From: Sminthopsis crassicaudata
Taxonomy: Eukaryota
Reading direction: 5' to 3'
NCBI RefSeq assembly: GCF_048593235.1
Contig: NC_133623.1
Span: forward strand, 23,242,211 to 23,306,210
Length of the DNA stretch: 64,000 nucleotides
Each line of letters opens with the position of its first letter. The first letter of the stretch is position 1. A program made the position numbers and the translations under genes. This document shows, piece by piece, positions 25,981 to 35,199 of the stretch. The notes under the pieces were generated by a model. The model saw only the letters and a program-made list of their open reading frames with translations. It was not told the origin of the DNA and did not search any database.

Positions 25981-28900
25981 TTTTTGACTGTTAACTTTAA
26001 ATTCTTTTTAAAATTTATTATTATTATAGCTTTTTATTTACAAGATATATGCATGGGTAATTTTACAGCACTGACATTTGTCAAGCCTTTTGTTCCAATT
26101 TTTCCCCTCCTTCCCCTCCATCTCCTCCCCCAGATGGCACGTTGACCAATACATGCTACATATGTTAAAGTATAAATTAAATACAATATATGTATACATG
26201 TCCAAACAGTTATTTTGCTGTACAAAGAGAATCAGACTTTGAAATACCGTACCATTAGCCTGTGAAGAAAATCAGAAATGCAGGCAGACAAAAATAGAGG
26301 GACTGGGAATTCTATGTAGTGGTTCCTAGTCACCTCCCAATGTTCTTTCCCTGGGTGTAGCCGGTTCAGTTCATTACTGCTCTATTGGAACTGATTTGGT
26401 TCATCTCATTGTTGAAGAGGGCCACATCCATTGGAATTGATCATCATATAATATTATTCAAGTGTATAATGATCTCCTGGCCCTACTCATTTCACTCAGA
26501 ATCAGGTCATGTAAATCTCTCCAGGCCTCTCTGAAATCCTCCTGCTGGTTGTTTCTCATAGAAAAATAATATTCCATAACATTCATATAGCATAACTTAT
26601 TGCCATTCTCCACTTGATGGGCATCCACTCAGTTTCTAGTTTCTGGCCAGTACAAAGAGGGCTGCCACAAACATTCTTTCACATACAGGTCCCTTTCCAT
26701 CCTTTAAGATCTCTTTGGGATATAAGTCCAGTAGTAACACTGCTGGATCAAAGGGTATGCACAGTTTGATAACTTTTTGAGCATAGTTCCAAATCATTCT
26801 CCAGAATGGCTGGATGTATTCACAGTTCTACCAACAATGTATCCATGTCCCTGTTTTCCCACATCCCCTCCAACATTGCGCATTATCTTTCCCTTTCATT
26901 CTAGTCAATCTGACAGGTGTGTAGTGGTATCTCAGAGTTGTCTTAATTTGCATTTCTCTGATTTTTTTACATTTTAAAATTAATTTTATAATTTTAACTT
27001 TGTTTTGACAGTACATATGCATGGGTAATTTTTTACAACATTATCCTTTCACTCACATCTATTCTGAATTTTCCCTCCTTCCCTCCACCCCCTCCCTTAG
27101 ATGGCAGGCAGTCCCATACATGTTAAATGTGTTATACTATATCCTAGATACAATATATGTGTGTAGAACCAAATTTCTTGTTGCACAGGAAGAATTGGAT
27201 TCAGCAGGCAAAAATAACCTGGGAAGAAAAACAAAAATGCAAACAGTTTACACTCATCTCCCAGTGTTCCTTCCATGAGTGTAGCTGATTCTGTCCATCA
27301 ATTGGAACTCAATTAGATCCTCTCTTTGTGGAAGATATCCATTTCTCTCAGAATATGTCCTCATACAGTATTGTTGTTGAAGTATATAATGATCTCCTGC
27401 TTCTGCTCATATCACTCAGCATCAGTTCATGTAAGTCTCTTCAATCCTCTCTGTATTCATCCTGCTGGTCATTTCTTTTTTTTTTCTTTTTTTTTTTAAA
27501 TTTTTATAATTATAAATTTTTTTGACAATATCTATGCATGAGTAATTTTTTTATAACATTATCCCTTGTATTCATTTTTCCAAATTTTCCCCTCCCTCCC
27601 TCTACTCCTTCCCCTAGATGACAGGTAATCCCATACATTTTACATGTGTTACAGTATAACCTAGATACAATATATGTGTGTAAATACCATTTTCTTGTTG
27701 CACATTAAGTATTAGATTCTTTAGGTGTAAGTAACCTGGGTAGATAGACAGTAGTGCTAACAGTTTACATTCAATTCCCAGTGTTCCTTCTCTGGGTGTA
27801 GTTGTTTCTGTCCATCATTGATCAGCTGGAAGTGAGTTGGATCTTCTTTATGTTGAAGATTTCCACTTCCATCAGAATACATCTCCATACAGTATTGTTG
27901 TTGAAGTGTATAGTGATCTTCTGGTTCTGCTCATTTCACTCAGCATCAGTTCCTGTAAGTCTCTCCAAACCTTTCTGAATTCATCCTGCTGGTCATTTCT
28001 TACAGAGCAATAATATTCCATAACCTTCATATACCATAATTTACCCAACCATTCTCCAATTGATGGACATCCATTCATCTTCCAGTTTCTAGCCACTACG
28101 AAAAGGGCTGCCACAAACATTTTGGCACATACAGGTCCCTTTCCCCTCTTTAGTATTTCTTTGGGGTATAAGCCCAGTAGTAGCACTGCTGGATCAAAGG
28201 GTATGCACAGTTTGATAACTTTTTGGGCATAGTTCCAAATTGCTCTCCAGAATGGCCGGATTCTTTCACAACTCCACCAACAATGTATTAGTGTCCCAGT
28301 TTTCCCACATCCCCTCCAACATTCATCATTATTTGTTCTTGTCATCTTAGCCAATGTTACAGGTGGGCAGTGGTATCTCAGAGTTGTCTTAATTTGCAAT
28401 TCTTTGATCAGTAGTGATTTGGAACACTCTTTCATATGAGTAGATATAGTTTCAATTTCATTATCTGAGAATTGTCTGTTCCTATCCTTTGACCATTTAT
28501 TAATTGGAGAATAGCTTGATTTCTTATATATTTGAGTCAATTCTCTATATATATTTTGGAAATGAGGCCTTTATCAGAACCTTTGACTGTAAAAATGTTT
28601 TCCCAGTTTATTGCTTCCCTTCTAATCTTATCTGCATTAGTTTTGTTTGTACAAAAACTTTTCAATTTGACATAATCAAATTTTTCTATTTTGTGATCAA
28701 TAATGATCTCTGGTTCTTCTTTAGTCATAAATTCATTTCTCTTCCACAGGTCTGAGAGGTAAACTATCCTATGTTCCTCTAATTTATTTATAATCTCATT
28801 CTTTATGCCTAGATCATGAACCCATTTTGACTTTATCTTGGTGTATGGTGTTAAGTGTAGGTCAATGCCTAGTTTCTGCCATACTGATTTCCAATTTTCC

Positions 28901-30286
28901 CAGCAATTTTTGCCAAACATTGAGTTCTTATCCCAAAAGCTGGGGTCTTTGGGTTTGTCAAACACGAGATTATTAGAGTTATTGACTGCTTTGTCCTTTG
29001 AACCTAACTTATTCCACTGATCAACTGGTCTATTTCTTAGCCAATACCAAATGGTTTTGGTGACTGCTGCTTTATAATATAATTTTAGATCTGGTATAGC
29101 TAAGCCACCTTCATTTGATTTTTTTTTTATTAATTCCCTTGAAATTCTTGACCTTTTGTTTTTCCATATGAACTTTGTTGTAATTTTTTCTAGGTCATTA
29201 AAATAGGTTTTTGGGAGTCTGATTGGTATAGTGCTAAATAAATAGATTAGTTTAGGTAGAATTGTCATTTTTATTTTATTTGCTCGCCCTATCCAAGAGC
29301 ATTTAATATTTTTCCAATTGGTTAGATCAGACATAATTTGTGTGGAAAGTGTTTTGTGGTTTTGCTTATATAGTGTCTGATTTTCCCTTGGCAGATAGAT
29401 TCCTAAATATTTTATACTATCGGTAGTTACTTAAAATGGAATTTCTCTTTGTAACTCTAACTGTTGGATTTTGTTGGTGATATATAAGAATGCTGATGAC
29501 ATATGCGGGTTTATTTTGTATCCTGCAACTTTGCTAAAGGTGTGAATTATTTCTAATAGCTTTTTAGTAGAATCTCTGGGATTCTCTAAATATATCTTCA
29601 TATTATCAGCAAAGGGTGATAATTTGGTTTCCTCATTACCTACCCTAATTCCTTTAATCTCTTTCTCAACTCTTATTGCCAAAGCTAGCATTTCTAATAC
29701 AACATTGAATAGTAATGGTGATAGTGGACCACCTTGTTTCACTCCTGATCTTACTATCTTACTGGGAATGGTTGCAGTTTATCCCCATTACATATGATGC
29801 TTACTGATGGTTTTAAATAGATGCTACTGATTATTTAAGGAAAAGTCCATTTATTACTATACTCTCAAGTGTTTTTAATAGGAATAGATGTTGGATTTTA
29901 TCAAATGCGTTTTCTGCATCTATTGAGATGATCATATGGTTTTTGTTAATTTGGTTATTAAATGGCCAATTATACTGATAGTTTTCCTAATATTAAACCA
30001 GCCCTGCATTGCTAGTATAAATCCTACTTGATCATGGTGTAGTATCCCGGGGATGATTTTTTGTAGTCTTTTTGCTAATATCTTATTTAAGATTTTAGCA
30101 TCAATGTTCATTAGGGAGATTGGTCCATAATTTTCTTTCTCTGTTTTTGTCCTAGCTGGTTTAGGTATCAGTAACATGTCTGTGTCATAAAAGGAATTTG
30201 GTAGGACTCCTTCATTCCCTATTTTTTCAAATAGTTTATATAGCATTGGGGCTAATTGTTCTTTACATGTTTGGTAGAATTCATAT
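25981..30286 (-). mobile_element. Composite 5'-truncated L1: three nested 3' ends (about 26004-26961, 26962-27477, 27478-28500) on an ORF2 body
   Basis: ORF2 fragments in the track (RT, C-terminal domain); perfect 16-bp TSD gattagaaattatctt at 25965-25980 and 30287-30302, ending in an L1 endonuclease-type TCTT/AA site. Confidence 0.95.
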
Positions 30287-31015: not shown

Positions 31016-33723
31016 TGATCTGGTCCAAGGTACTGATTTTGCAAAAGAAGAATCTGGGGCCCAGAGGCAGGAAGAGATTTGCCATGGCTTACCAGAGTAA
31101 GTAGCAGAGGTTGGACAGCTCAGGTGCCCTGCCCTAGTCCTTTGAGTCCTAATATGATACTGTTGCCATGACTCTCAACTGACTATCCACTCTGAAGACC
31201 TGGATTTGAAGTGACTTGCCCATTTCCTAACATATCACCTTAGGGCCTTAGGTTTCCTCTTTTGGAAAATGGGAGGGCAGTTGATCCCTAAAGTTCCTTC
31301 CCTAAATGCTAGGAATAAATGCAGTAGGATGTTCCATTGTTTTTCTTCACTCCAGCTGTGGCCTAGCAGTGCCTTTGGGCTTCTGAGCTTCTTCCTAGTC
31401 AGTGCTGGAGTTTGCTTCTACCAGAATGAGGTGTCATATGTTCTTTATGCAGGTTCTTCACCTTAGTTTCCTCCCCAGGATGCATTCCTAAGTCTTCTGG
31501 ACTTTCTCTAACATATCCTAGAAAGTACCCTCTGCTCCAACTGACTGGTTCATCCCAGAACCTCCATTTTGAGGTGGTTGCCCAGAACCATGCCATGCCT
31601 TCATTTTGCTCTGGGCTGTAGTCCTCACTGTGCTGCCTTTTCCATGATGCCCCTGTACTGGACGCCTTCATCTTCCTTTTATTCTTCCTTTACTATCTTC
31701 CTCTATTGCAATGGTACTTCTTTGGGGAAGGAAGTATCTTTCTGCTGGTGTTTATATACCCAGCACTTAGTACCATGCCTGGTACATAACAAGCATTTAA
31801 TAAATGTCTAATGATTCCGTTCATTCCTTTATTGGTGCTATGAATAATGGGTATTTTGAATTAAAGTCTTCAAGGGAAGGTAAAGACTCTCAGGAGAAAA
31901 GGCTGGTTGCTTGGCCTGTATTCTTCTTAAATTGTTATCCAAATTACTTGTCAGCCTGAGTGTGTACAGGAGCGCAAATAACTCTTTGGGGGAGGGGGAG
32001 CCAAATGAGACTGATTCATTCCCAAGGCGTTTCTGGGTAGGGCCAAGAGCCAGAAAGATTTTCTGAGAAAACTTTTCTCCTCACTGCCACCCCCATCACG
32101 GCATTTTCAGCCCACTTCACACCTACCTGGGATCAAGGCATAACATTTACCTGCTGGATTTTCTGCCTTCTGCCTGCCTGCTCTTTAGGGGTCCTGGCCC
32201 TGGCCCTGGCCCAGGCTCTTGGCCTGCTAGCTCCTTCCCATCCTGGCCCTCTCCTGAGATCTCTAAACTTTGCCTTGTTGCTTTTTCTCTGTCTGGGTTC
32301 CCCACTGTGGCAGTCTTGGCACCAATACTGAGAAGTTCATTTTTTAAAGAAATGGGGTAAGAATGCAAAGAGTCCCAAATGAAAGTTCTCATGGAAGAAA
32401 ACAAATGCTGTATTTTCCCATGAGGCCCTATGTGCCCATGGCTCATGGTTTCATTTTTGTTTGTTTTTTGGAGAATTTTTTTTCTCATTAGGGAACTGAA
32501 GGCCAGCTCCCCCCAAAAGGAGAAATGCTGAAGTTCCCTGGGGTATCTGTACTACTGGGGAGGACAGATGAGCTTGGACAGCATAGAGACCTCTATCACC
32601 TGGAGCAGTGAGTAGCGCCCAAGGCAGGCCCAGCCAGGAGCTACACCAGAATTCCAAGGAGGGCCACTGAGTGGCAGAGAGCAGATAGCAGATGCCAGCA
32701 GAAGTCTTCAGGTAGCAAAACACCAGGGCATGTCGGAAGCAAGACTTCAACAGCTCCATTCTAATGGTAAAGACTCTATCCTGCTGAAGGCATGCATTTT
32801 TCAAGCAAAGAAACTCATTTATCCCAAGCAATAACAAAACAGAAAGCAGAGAAAGATCTAGGGCAGGAGGTCTTAGGCAACAGAGGTGAAAGGGCTCTCC
32901 CCGCTGGGAGTAAGGCCACAGTGTAACCGAGAGAGAAGGAGTCCCAGACCTCATCTGTATTGTGATTTTAAAGAAAAAGTTCAGATTCGCTCCTACTAAT
33001 CAATCCTTCTTAAATCACCTTCATTCTCCTGTCCCATCTCTCTGTCTCTCTCCTCCCAATGCTTACTTACTTAAACCTTCTCCGACATACTTTAAACACT
33101 TCCAAACCAATAACTCTTCTGACTAGATGCTTCATTTAAACTATTAATTACTTTCATAAGTTAATCTCTCTTGTCCCTTTTCTTTAATCACCCTTTTTTT
33201 AACTTTAAACTTTAAGATTCATAACCCATAATGATAACAAATTACCCAATGTTTCAGAAGCAAACCAAATAGTTTTTTTTCTTTCTTCTGCCTGAGTGCT
33301 TCAAGGCCACTAGTAAGAAGCTTCCCAGGTGGTATTAAGCAGATAAGATTGTATTGCCTTTATTCCTCTTTAGCAGAGCAGACTTTGAAAATCTGCTTTT
33401 CAGAGAAAACTTTCCCACCAGTTTAAAATAGTCAAGTTTTTTTTGTTTTAGTTACAAATTGGTACAACAGGTTAAAAAGTTTAAAATCACAAACAATTTT
33501 TAAGACCAATACATTTTGAACCACTCTGACAGAATTACTATTCTGAATGAATTCCAATTTCCACAATTCAGCCTGATAGTTTTCTAAGCCTGTAACACAG
33601 AGGCTGAATTCTTATCTCTTATGAGCTTGCTAACTTTTAACACAGAACAAAAAATTCAAAGCAGACAAACATACACAGACAGACAGAGAGTTCTATTTTT
33701 CTTAAAGAGAGGCATTTATACAG

Positions 33724-33744
33724 CGAATCCTGCCCACTACGCCA
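33724..33744 (-). promoter_or_regulatory. Primer-binding site complementary to tRNA-Ser 3' end
   Basis: Minus strand TGGCGTAGTGGGCAGGATTCG vs complement of the vertebrate tRNA-Ser 3' end TGGCGTAGTCGGCAGGATTCG (20/21; tRNA sequence recalled from memory). Confidence 0.9.
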
Positions 33745-33749
33745 ATTTA

Positions 33750-34377
33750 TGTATTACGATTTTAAAGAAAAGTTCGGATTCGCTCCTATAAATGACGCTC
33801 TCAAGCTCAGTTAAAAAGTAAAAGTAAAAAGTTTTAATCAAACAAGACAAGGTACAGACAATTTAAACTTACATAAAAAACAAATAAGAATAACTAATGC
33901 AACAACAACAATGATTAGTATAGCAGATAGAGGAAGAGAATACATCACCAATTCAAGGGAACCTAAAAAACTCAAATGGCTGGGAGTCCCGTTTCAGCCT
34001 CAATCAACTTGAATTGTGTAAAGATTTTTCCGGGCGAAGCGTCCTCCCCACGGATGAGACTCAACTATGGCTTATAACACGGGCTTTTTATATGTTTTCA
34101 GACAAAGAAGGCTCCTGGCCAAAACTTATCTATATATTCATGTTGATTCACTCCAAACTCTTGAAGCTTGACATGTTTCCTTATCAATTGCATATGCACA
34201 GGGAGGAAGCCACCCAACCCTAAGCATAAGCACGTCCAAGAATGGCTAGTTCCTGGTATCTGTTGTCAAGGACATACAGAGTTTATGGAATGGTCAAGTT
34301 CCTATAATTTAGAAGCTCAGGCCTGTTAGATTTGAGTGAGCTTATAATTCTAATATGAACTCTTAATTTCTTATTCA
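33750..34377 (-). mobile_element. 5' LTR (628 bp)
   Basis: Minus strand TGaataag...taataCA; TATA-like catataaaaagc near 34083-34094; ATTAAA near 33833-33838; followed after 5 nt by the PBS. Confidence 0.85.
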
Positions 34378-35199
34378 TCATCCAAGGGGAAATTGCCCAC
34401 AGTCTCTAGTGTAGCCAACTGGGGATGGGAACATGATGGAGACGTCCGCTCCTCTGATGGTGGCTTCTTCCCACAGTCTTCCTCTCCCTTCAGCATCCTG
34501 AAGTGGAATTAGCTTTGCATTGTTCATCTTCTCTTTCCAAGCTGGAACTCAGAAGAGCCCCGAGCTACTACAAAGTCCCACAAAGATTGAAGCATTCTGG
34601 GCACACATCTTTGTCAGAGGAACTCAATTCCTAAATGACTGAATGGAAAGAGACTGAAAGTGGAGTGATTTGGCAACAAAGCAGTAACCAAGGATTTGAC
34701 TACTGGTTGATTTTTTTTTTTTTGTATCAGAGGGTATCGCTGGCACCAGCCTATGGGACATTTTTCTCCCCTGCCTGCTCTATGTGGTGGGCAGTGGCAG
34801 CATTCTGGTCTTCAGGAGATTTCCTCCCTTTTTGGTCCTTTAAACACCTCATCGGCTCCTTGGGCATTCTTTCTCCTGGAGCTGCACCCCAGCAAAGATG
34901 AGTCTCCCCCTTCTCCCCAATGCTACTTGCCTCACAGTTACTTTGCTGTTTGGAAACATTGTTAAGATTGTTTTCTGTTATTTTGCTACTCATTTCTCTC
35001 ATCGTTCAATATTTTACTGATTCAGTGTTTTTCTAGCATGGTTCTGTAAGTAACTAATAAATACCTAGACCTGAGCTGATTTCAGATGCTCCCAGTTTGA
35101 CAAGCAAAAAAGCCTGAAAGGTAAAATGCCATTACCAATCTCAGTTCTTTAGCAATTAACTATGTCACAGAAGTCACTGAATTGATTCTATCATTTGAC

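What the first reader, a model, noticed from the sequence alone, without database searches (positions are those of the whole stretch)
32951..34382. 1.4-kb asymmetric LTR element: full 5' LTR, Ser PBS, non-coding leader and a 45-bp 3' LTR stub within an intact 5-bp TSD
Seen (minus strand): TG-LTR(628 bp)-CA, taaat, PBS-Ser, about 720 bp of non-coding internal sequence with a tgtctgtctgtgt leader-like tract and a purine-rich stretch (33026-33058), then only the U5-terminal approx 45 bp (tgtattgtgattttaaagaaaaagttcagattcgctcc vs tgtattacgattttaaagaaaagttcggattcgctcc, about 36/40) and TSD tcatc. Established: solo LTRs and two-LTR deleted elements are the usual decay products; 5-bp TSDs and Ser primers occur in class III (HERV-S-like) ERVs; integrase needs only the terminal att sites. 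Inference: either a post-integration deletion, or a minimal non-autonomous element that integrated in this form, possibly from an uncatalogued marsupial family.
Basis: partly seen in the sequence, partly recalled or inferred. Interest (0 to 1): 0.7.

Follow-up and report, generated by a model that had tools for sequence, protein, structure and literature searches.

The report
Deleted copy of cross-class hybrid retrovirus
This is a one-off broken copy of an inherited retrovirus that likely lost its middle after insertion, not a mobile mini-element; the interest lies in its family, a hybrid of two unrelated retrovirus classes that spread to many sites in this genome.

Summary
The anatomy is real: 628-bp LTR, primer site, about 730 bp internal, 40-bp LTR stub, 5-bp duplication. 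It is not a mobile mini-element. The stub junction occurs once in 3.24 Gb, and 0 of 29 leader-bearing relatives have it. It sits on a 9-of-11 microhomology (chance about 0.2%) and removes 3,437 bp against the closest two-LTR relative. The element lacks the 3' U3 needed to copy itself. The source family is more interesting. Its LTR, primer site, gag start and env half come from a class III provirus (foamy-like RT, dUTPase after integrase, predicted foamy/F-type Env; 3 copies). Its leader and pol remnants come from a likely class I element. The hybrid junction has 96 matches at 22-28 separate places, and 8 of 14 scored two-LTR copies have distinct perfect 5-bp duplications. The closest analogue is recKoRV. 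Ten paper searches found no description; Dfam and Repbase could not be checked. The scan had not noted this before.

The parts
34378..34382 (-). 5' copy of the 5-bp target-site duplication
   Evidence: sequence
33750..34377 (-). complete 5' LTR, 628 bp, shared with the class III parent and with many solo LTRs
   Evidence: 3.2-6.6% from ten near solo LTRs
33833..33838 (-). likely poly(A) signal ATTAAA in the LTR; absent from the stub
   Evidence: function inferred
33745..33749 (-). 5-nt spacer between LTR and primer site, the family norm
33727..33744 (-). primer-binding site, tRNA-Ser type (identity recalled), shared with the class III parent
33694..33715 (-). first codons of class III gag, ending in the tract shared with the class I leader (5' hybrid junction)
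32996..33693 (-). leader derived from a different element family with other LTRs, another primer site and 4-bp duplications (likely class I)
   Evidence: 83-91% matches to L042 and L047
33026..33058 (-). purine-rich stretch; ordinary leader sequence, not next to a 3' LTR in intact relatives
32985..32995 (-). deletion junction on an 11-nt imperfect repeat (9 of 11) between leader and U5
32956..32995 (-). last 40 bp of the 3' LTR
32951..32955 (-). 3' copy of the 5-bp target-site duplication
   Evidence: sequence

Best explanation
[quoted passage not shown] Shown: the junction is unique, lies on a 9-of-11 repeat, and relatives of 3.9-6.7 kb keep the missing part. Inferred: a normal hybrid provirus integrated (5-bp duplication, class III-type integrase); later a break was repaired by microhomology-mediated end joining, removing the rest of the leader, the pol remnants, the env half, U3, R and most of U5. 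It would be unable to copy itself, since its RNA would lack a 3' U3 and R. The hybrid family likely arose once, by two template switches between a class III and a class I RNA, and was likely spread by class III enzymes supplied in trans.
For: Junction: 1 match genome-wide at up to 1 mismatch. At up to 3 mismatches there are 6 matches: self, 4 undeleted leader variants and 1 unrelated. Of 29 relatives, 28 continue into leader, 1 breaks into unrelated DNA, 0 have the stub. Deletion is 3,437 bp against L078. Random breakpoints reach 9 of 11 in 0.16-0.20% of 100,000 draws in each of 3 relatives. The stub begins 44 nt after the ATTAAA. Hybrid: three class III proviruses share LTR, primer site and gag start and then diverge; a 14-nt tract is identical between parent gag start and donor leader; 96 matches to the hybrid junction against 3 to the parent; one shared 3' junction in 28 of 37 loci; 8 of 14 scorable copies have distinct perfect 5-bp duplications; donors have 4-bp duplications in 3 of 4.
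Against: No undeleted allele or orthologue of this locus was seen, so timing after integration is not shown. One search scored only 40 of 571 candidates, of which 29 others were fetched. Contigs cross the junction by only 19-24 letters, one run may be the assembly's source, and X9 and X11 stop short. The repeat is imperfect. Class I status of the donor rests on weak hits: RT piece to MLV RT at E about 1e-4, MLVIN_C above cut-off in 1 of 3 pieces hit; the donor integrase core matched foamy integrase best. 6 of 14 hybrid copies lack a perfect duplication. 63 of the 96 matches lie in four clusters that look like segmental or tandem duplications.
Confidence: 0.72

Rival explanations
1. One-off deletion made during reverse transcription: after the second strand jump, the plus strand skipped from the leader to U5 at the short repeat, and the product integrated with both ends intact.
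For: Same microhomology; both att ends and the duplication are intact; the family's own junction shows short-repeat switching; all 5 informative runs carry the deleted form.
Against: It needs a full-length minus strand to supply U3 and then repair towards the deleted strand (from general knowledge of reverse transcription). Deletions with short repeats at junctions also arise in integrated constructs without RT (10.64898/2026.10.12.758617, abstract).
Confidence: 0.22
2. A mobile minimal element that transposes in this asymmetric form.
For: Both integrase ends, a primer site and a leader are present.
Against: One copy only; none of 37 hybrid loci or 29 leader loci shows the stub; no U3, R or poly(A) signal at the 3' end; the purine stretch is ordinary leader.
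Confidence: 0.03
3. Assembly collapse of a longer provirus.
For: The region is repetitive, and no contig spans the whole element.
Against: Contigs of 5 runs from 3 studies carry flank, stub and leader in one piece with no difference.
Confidence: 0.03

Closest known systems
recKoRV (KoRV x PhER recombinants; PMC6112702, passages)
   Same: Ends of one retrovirus around the inside of an unrelated non-coding retroelement; microhomology at breakpoints; several loci with duplications; relies on the integrase that fits the LTRs.
   Different: There the helper is a gammaretrovirus under 50,000 years old. Here the ends are class III, the inside is likely class I, LTR pairs differ by 0.56-8.1% (12 pairs), and one pair of junctions dominates.
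XtERV-S (PMC8278194, passages)
   Same: Class III gag-pol, Ser primer, dUTPase after integrase, YIDD, 5-bp duplication, deleted derivative copies.
   Different: XtERV-S has a gamma-type TM and a purine tract. The parent here has a predicted foamy/F-type Env, no clear purine tract before the 3' LTR, and gag starting 11 nt after the primer site.
ERV-S / HERV-S
   Same: Class III, Ser primer (recalled), env present, 5-bp duplication.
   Different: ERV-S lacks an identifiable dUTPase (PMC8278194, passage); the parent here has one.
ERV-L
   Same: Class III pol, dUTPase after integrase, 5-bp duplication (PMC8278194, passages).
   Different: ERV-L has no env; its Leu primer is recalled.
Foamy virus and lokiretrovirus Env (PMC12390576, PMC7947760, passages)
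   Same: Retroviral Env resembling paramyxo- and pneumovirus F.
   Different: Resemblance here is from predicted models of relatives only (best Z 6.5, rmsd 7.4, 211 aligned); no Pfam or PDB sequence hit.
Internally deleted proviruses with short repeats at the junction
   Same: Describes this locus itself.
   Different: [quoted passage not shown]

Membership tests
Mobile minimal non-autonomous LTR element | several loci share the junction with different duplications | tested here: not met
Mobile minimal non-autonomous LTR element | 3' U3 and R plus a plus-strand primer, to rebuild both LTRs | tested here: not met
   stub is the last 40 bp only
Class III ERV (parent; source of LTR, primer site, gag start) | RT closer to spumavirus than to gamma or beta RT | tested here: met
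   best E 1e-31 for peptidase A9/RT entries (foamy virus; name recalled) against 5e-20 for MLV-type; similarity ranking, no tree
Class III ERV (parent; source of LTR, primer site, gag start) | 5-bp target-site duplication | tested here: met
   19 of 29 LTR loci perfect; 8 of 14 hybrids
Class III ERV (parent; source of LTR, primer site, gag start) | placement in a pol phylogeny with named references | not tested
   the 120 listed relatives (of 217) bore no ERV family names
ERV-S / HERV-S | tRNA-Ser primer site | tested here: inconclusive
   site conserved in the family; match to tRNA-Ser recalled, no host tRNA compared
ERV-S / HERV-S | no dUTPase | tested here: not met
   PF00692 above cut-off after integrase in 3 of 3 parents
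ERV-L | dUTPase after integrase | tested here: met
ERV-L | no env | tested here: not met
   env-like frames with a basic cleavage-like site and hydrophobic C-terminal stretch before the 3' LTR
XtERV-S type | gamma-type (class I) TM subunit | tested here: inconclusive
   no Pfam env family hit; fold searches point to foamy Env and F proteins at modest scores
Class I ERV (donor of leader and pol remnants) | MLV-like RT and integrase C-terminus | tested here: inconclusive
   for; against; fragments only
Class I ERV (donor of leader and pol remnants) | 4-bp duplication, own LTR and primer site | tested here: met
   3 of 4 donors with 4-bp duplication, no LTR similarity to the window for 2 of 2 tested; Pro-type primer site, identity recalled
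recKoRV-type recombinant (works like) | helper LTRs around an unrelated inside, microhomology, several independent insertions | tested here: met
recKoRV-type recombinant (works like) | co-packaging and mobilisation by the helper shown | not testable with these tools
   inferred from duplication length only
Catalogued Dfam or Repbase family | match to a library entry | not testable with these tools
   neither library is held

The most novel reading that the evidence does not exclude
The locus exposes an undescribed marsupial class III retrovirus lineage (Ser primer, dUTPase, foamy/F-type envelope, relatives from sharks to New World monkeys) that captured the inside of a class I element and drove this cross-class hybrid to dozens of insertions, the latest about one million years ago.
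Probability: 0.45. Interest if true: 0.62.

Novelty: new variant of a known kind. Interest (0 to 1): 0.4.

Why it matters
The asymmetric element itself is ordinary decay. Its family matters more. Recombination between class III and class I viruses is described as unusual (PMC10536682, passages), and here such a hybrid far outnumbers its parent (96 against 3 matches). It raises a testable question: which virus's packaging signal and enzymes moved an RNA with class III ends and a class I leader. The parent also extends marsupial ERV diversity beyond the eight class I and II clades of PMC11334065 (passages), and suggests that non-foamy class III viruses of mammals carried a foamy/F-type envelope until recently.

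Tried and rejected
Purine stretch as a polypurine tract: rejected. Coding inside the element: no stop-free frame over 70 aa within it apart from ones running into the flank, and no Pfam hit for the two pieces scanned. Second junction copies: the 5 non-self matches at 3 mismatches were undeleted leaders or chance. Parent gag in hybrids or donors: no tblastn hit in 12 hybrids and 3 donors. Naming the env by sequence: no Pfam hit, 2 weak irrelevant PDB hits. The full-length Env model was poor (pLDDT 60, pTM 0.37); VIA-align gave F proteins only Z 4.7-5.3 with high rmsd, under a helical non-viral top hit at Z 7.2. Atlas features gave fusion-glycoprotein clusters at 0.83, a lead only. Runs X9 and X11 stop before the junction and say nothing. 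Expression was not assessed: the runs are contigs and their RNA label is a guess. Papers: searches listed no description of this element, hybrid or parent; term look-ups in PMC12690878, 10.64898/2026.01.13.699032 and PMC10152393 gave nothing relevant. No supplements were opened; those of PMC11334065 could hold unclassified loci. No host gene was identified around the element (not a full annotation).

Full report
Observation. The minus strand reads: GATGA, a 628-bp LTR (34377-33750), TAAAT, an 18-nt primer site (33744-33727), 731 bp of internal DNA, the last 40 bp of the LTR (32995-32956) and GATGA again. The stub matches the LTR end at 36 of 40. The family makes 5-bp duplications: 19 of 29 other LTR loci have a perfect one, 4 have 4 of 5, 4 are provirus ends and 2 could not be scored (these were the top loci of 40 scored from 952 candidates). 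Contigs of 5 of 8 runs, from 3 studies, join flank, stub and leader without a difference, though only 19-24 letters past the junction. In run X14, another organism, a 5,820-nt contig follows the flank (32 differences and 4 gaps over 452 bases) and leaves the window at 32952, the insertion point. That is likely an empty site; its other half was not seen.

Is it a mobile family? No. A search with the 155 bases across the junction scored 40 of 571 candidates. Of the 29 other loci fetched, 28 continue into more leader, 1 breaks into unrelated DNA and none has the stub. A junction pattern matches once genome-wide at up to 1 mismatch. At up to 3 mismatches it adds four undeleted leader variants and one chance match. 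From established retroviral replication, the U3 of the left LTR is copied from the right end of the RNA. The stub starts 44 nt after the ATTAAA signal and holds no U3 or R, so an RNA from this locus would not rebuild a full left LTR. The purine-rich stretch is leader, 2.9 kb from the 3' LTR in L078.

How it arose. Against the closest two-LTR relative (L078, 4,849 bp, 93% identical) 3,437 bp are missing; other relatives reach 6.7 kb. Leader and U5 agree at 9 of 11 bases at the join; random breakpoint pairs do so in 0.16-0.20% of draws. Repair of a break in the integrated provirus is the simplest route (inferred, 0.72). A skip during plus-strand synthesis gives the same product (0.22). The LTR differs by 3.2-4.7% from its five nearest solo LTRs: about 7-11 million years at the mammalian rate used in PMC7947760 (passage), a rough upper figure.

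What was deleted from. A search with the family's 3' frame led to three proviruses of 7.6-8.4 kb with the same LTR and primer site (L113, L114, L118). They hold gag, protease, RT, RNase H, integrase, dUTPase and an env-like gene; each is interrupted by stops or frame changes. The RT is closest to foamy-virus entries in the PDB (E 1e-31 against 5e-20 for MLV type). Nearest database proteins are from possum (80%) and koala (82%), then mole-rat, New World monkeys, seahorse, shark and frogs, none with an ERV name among the 120 of 217 listed; a marsupial host is inferred from this. The env piece has 51 relatives at E up to 0.001, led by a koala protein at 71%, with echidna, marmoset, amphibian and shark proteins among the ten looked up. 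A model of the koala protein (pLDDT 60) gave paramyxo- and pneumovirus F as top Foldseek hits (E 4.5e-6, TM about 0.2) but weak VIA scores. A model of a 306-aa relative (pLDDT 79) had foamy-virus Env first of 48,161 chains (Z 6.5, rmsd 7.4, 211 aligned), and every listed Foldseek row was an F protein or foamy Env (best E 9e-4). Foamy Env is known to resemble F (PMC12390576, passages). So a foamy/F-type envelope is likely, not proven.

The hybrid. The window follows these parents through the primer site and the first gag codons, then switches to the leader of other elements (L042, L043, L045, L047) that have unrelated LTRs, another primer site and 4-bp duplications in 3 of 4. Parent and donor share 14 identical bases at the switch. 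Full hybrids continue through degenerate RT, RNase H and integrase pieces, hold no parent gag (0 of 12), and return to the 3' half of the class III env. The donor is likely class I: RT piece hits MLV RT only, weakly; MLVIN_C passes its cut-off in one piece; the integrase core hit foamy integrase best, so the assignment is not firm. A likeness to the HERV-I group is recalled, not tested. The 5' hybrid junction has 96 matches against 3 for the parent, at 22-28 separate places once clusters are merged. Of 37 hybrid loci read, 28 show the same 3' junction; 14 could be scored at both ends: 8 have perfect and different 5-bp duplications, 3 have 4 of 5, 2 have 3 of 5, 1 has 1 of 5; 12 LTR pairs differ by 0.56-8.1%. 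A single origin and repeated integration by class III enzymes in trans are inferred.

Comparison. The locus is an ordinary internally deleted provirus. The family works like recKoRV (PMC6112702, passages). The parent fits neither ERV-L (no env) nor ERV-S (no dUTPase) nor, probably, XtERV-S (gamma-type TM) as set out in PMC8278194 (passages). A survey of marsupial ERVs placed its eight clades in classes I and II (PMC11334065, passages). Ten searches listed no description; most subscription papers, supplements, Dfam and Repbase were not seen. PMC13524379 (passages) says a study of vertebrate ERV envelopes is to come. Earlier notes of this scan did not bear on it.

Verdict. Observation confirmed; mobile mini-element refuted; one-off deletion. 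Interest 0.4, carried by the hybrid family and its parent. New variant of a known kind.

Noticed in passing
L113, L114, L118, L033, L034, L078, L123 just before the 3' LTR: No clear polypurine tract; the env frame runs to the LTR and its stop is the LTR's first TGA. In the parent, gag starts 11 nt after the primer site.
   Followed up: partly
P0001, P0052, P0054 (koala), P0005 (marmoset): Annotated 601-630 aa proteins of this envelope type, named only 'uncharacterized'; candidates for recent or co-opted env genes.
   Followed up: partly
L039, L040 (from about 5200 in L040): The hybrid env is joined to a beta-type pol piece (RVT_thumb, Integrase_Zn, IN_DBD_C above cut-off) with an L1 further in.
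   Followed up: no
L036-L038: Leader and 3' half of the hybrid without the 5' LTR, with a truncated 3' LTR, between L1-like repeats.
   Followed up: no
G000:C3:362.65-362.96 Mb: 23 hybrid junctions in a tandem array of about 13.4-kb period; further clusters on C6 (18), C5 (12) and C3 (8).
   Followed up: no
L005 / L041: Another hybrid copy breaks 7 nt before the end of the same leader tract and goes on into unrelated DNA.
   Followed up: no
L063 / L081: Full LTR plus the 5-nt spacer, then unrelated DNA with no primer site and no duplication.
   Followed up: partly
L114: One class III provirus lies inside a short-period tandem repeat on both sides.
   Followed up: no
P0056: A member of the koala env cluster is labelled as a Bacteroidales genome-bin protein, likely host DNA in a metagenome.
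   Followed up: no
window 27875-29430 and 42975-46174, minus strand: Frames that read like L1 ORF2 pieces (likeness recalled).
   Followed up: no
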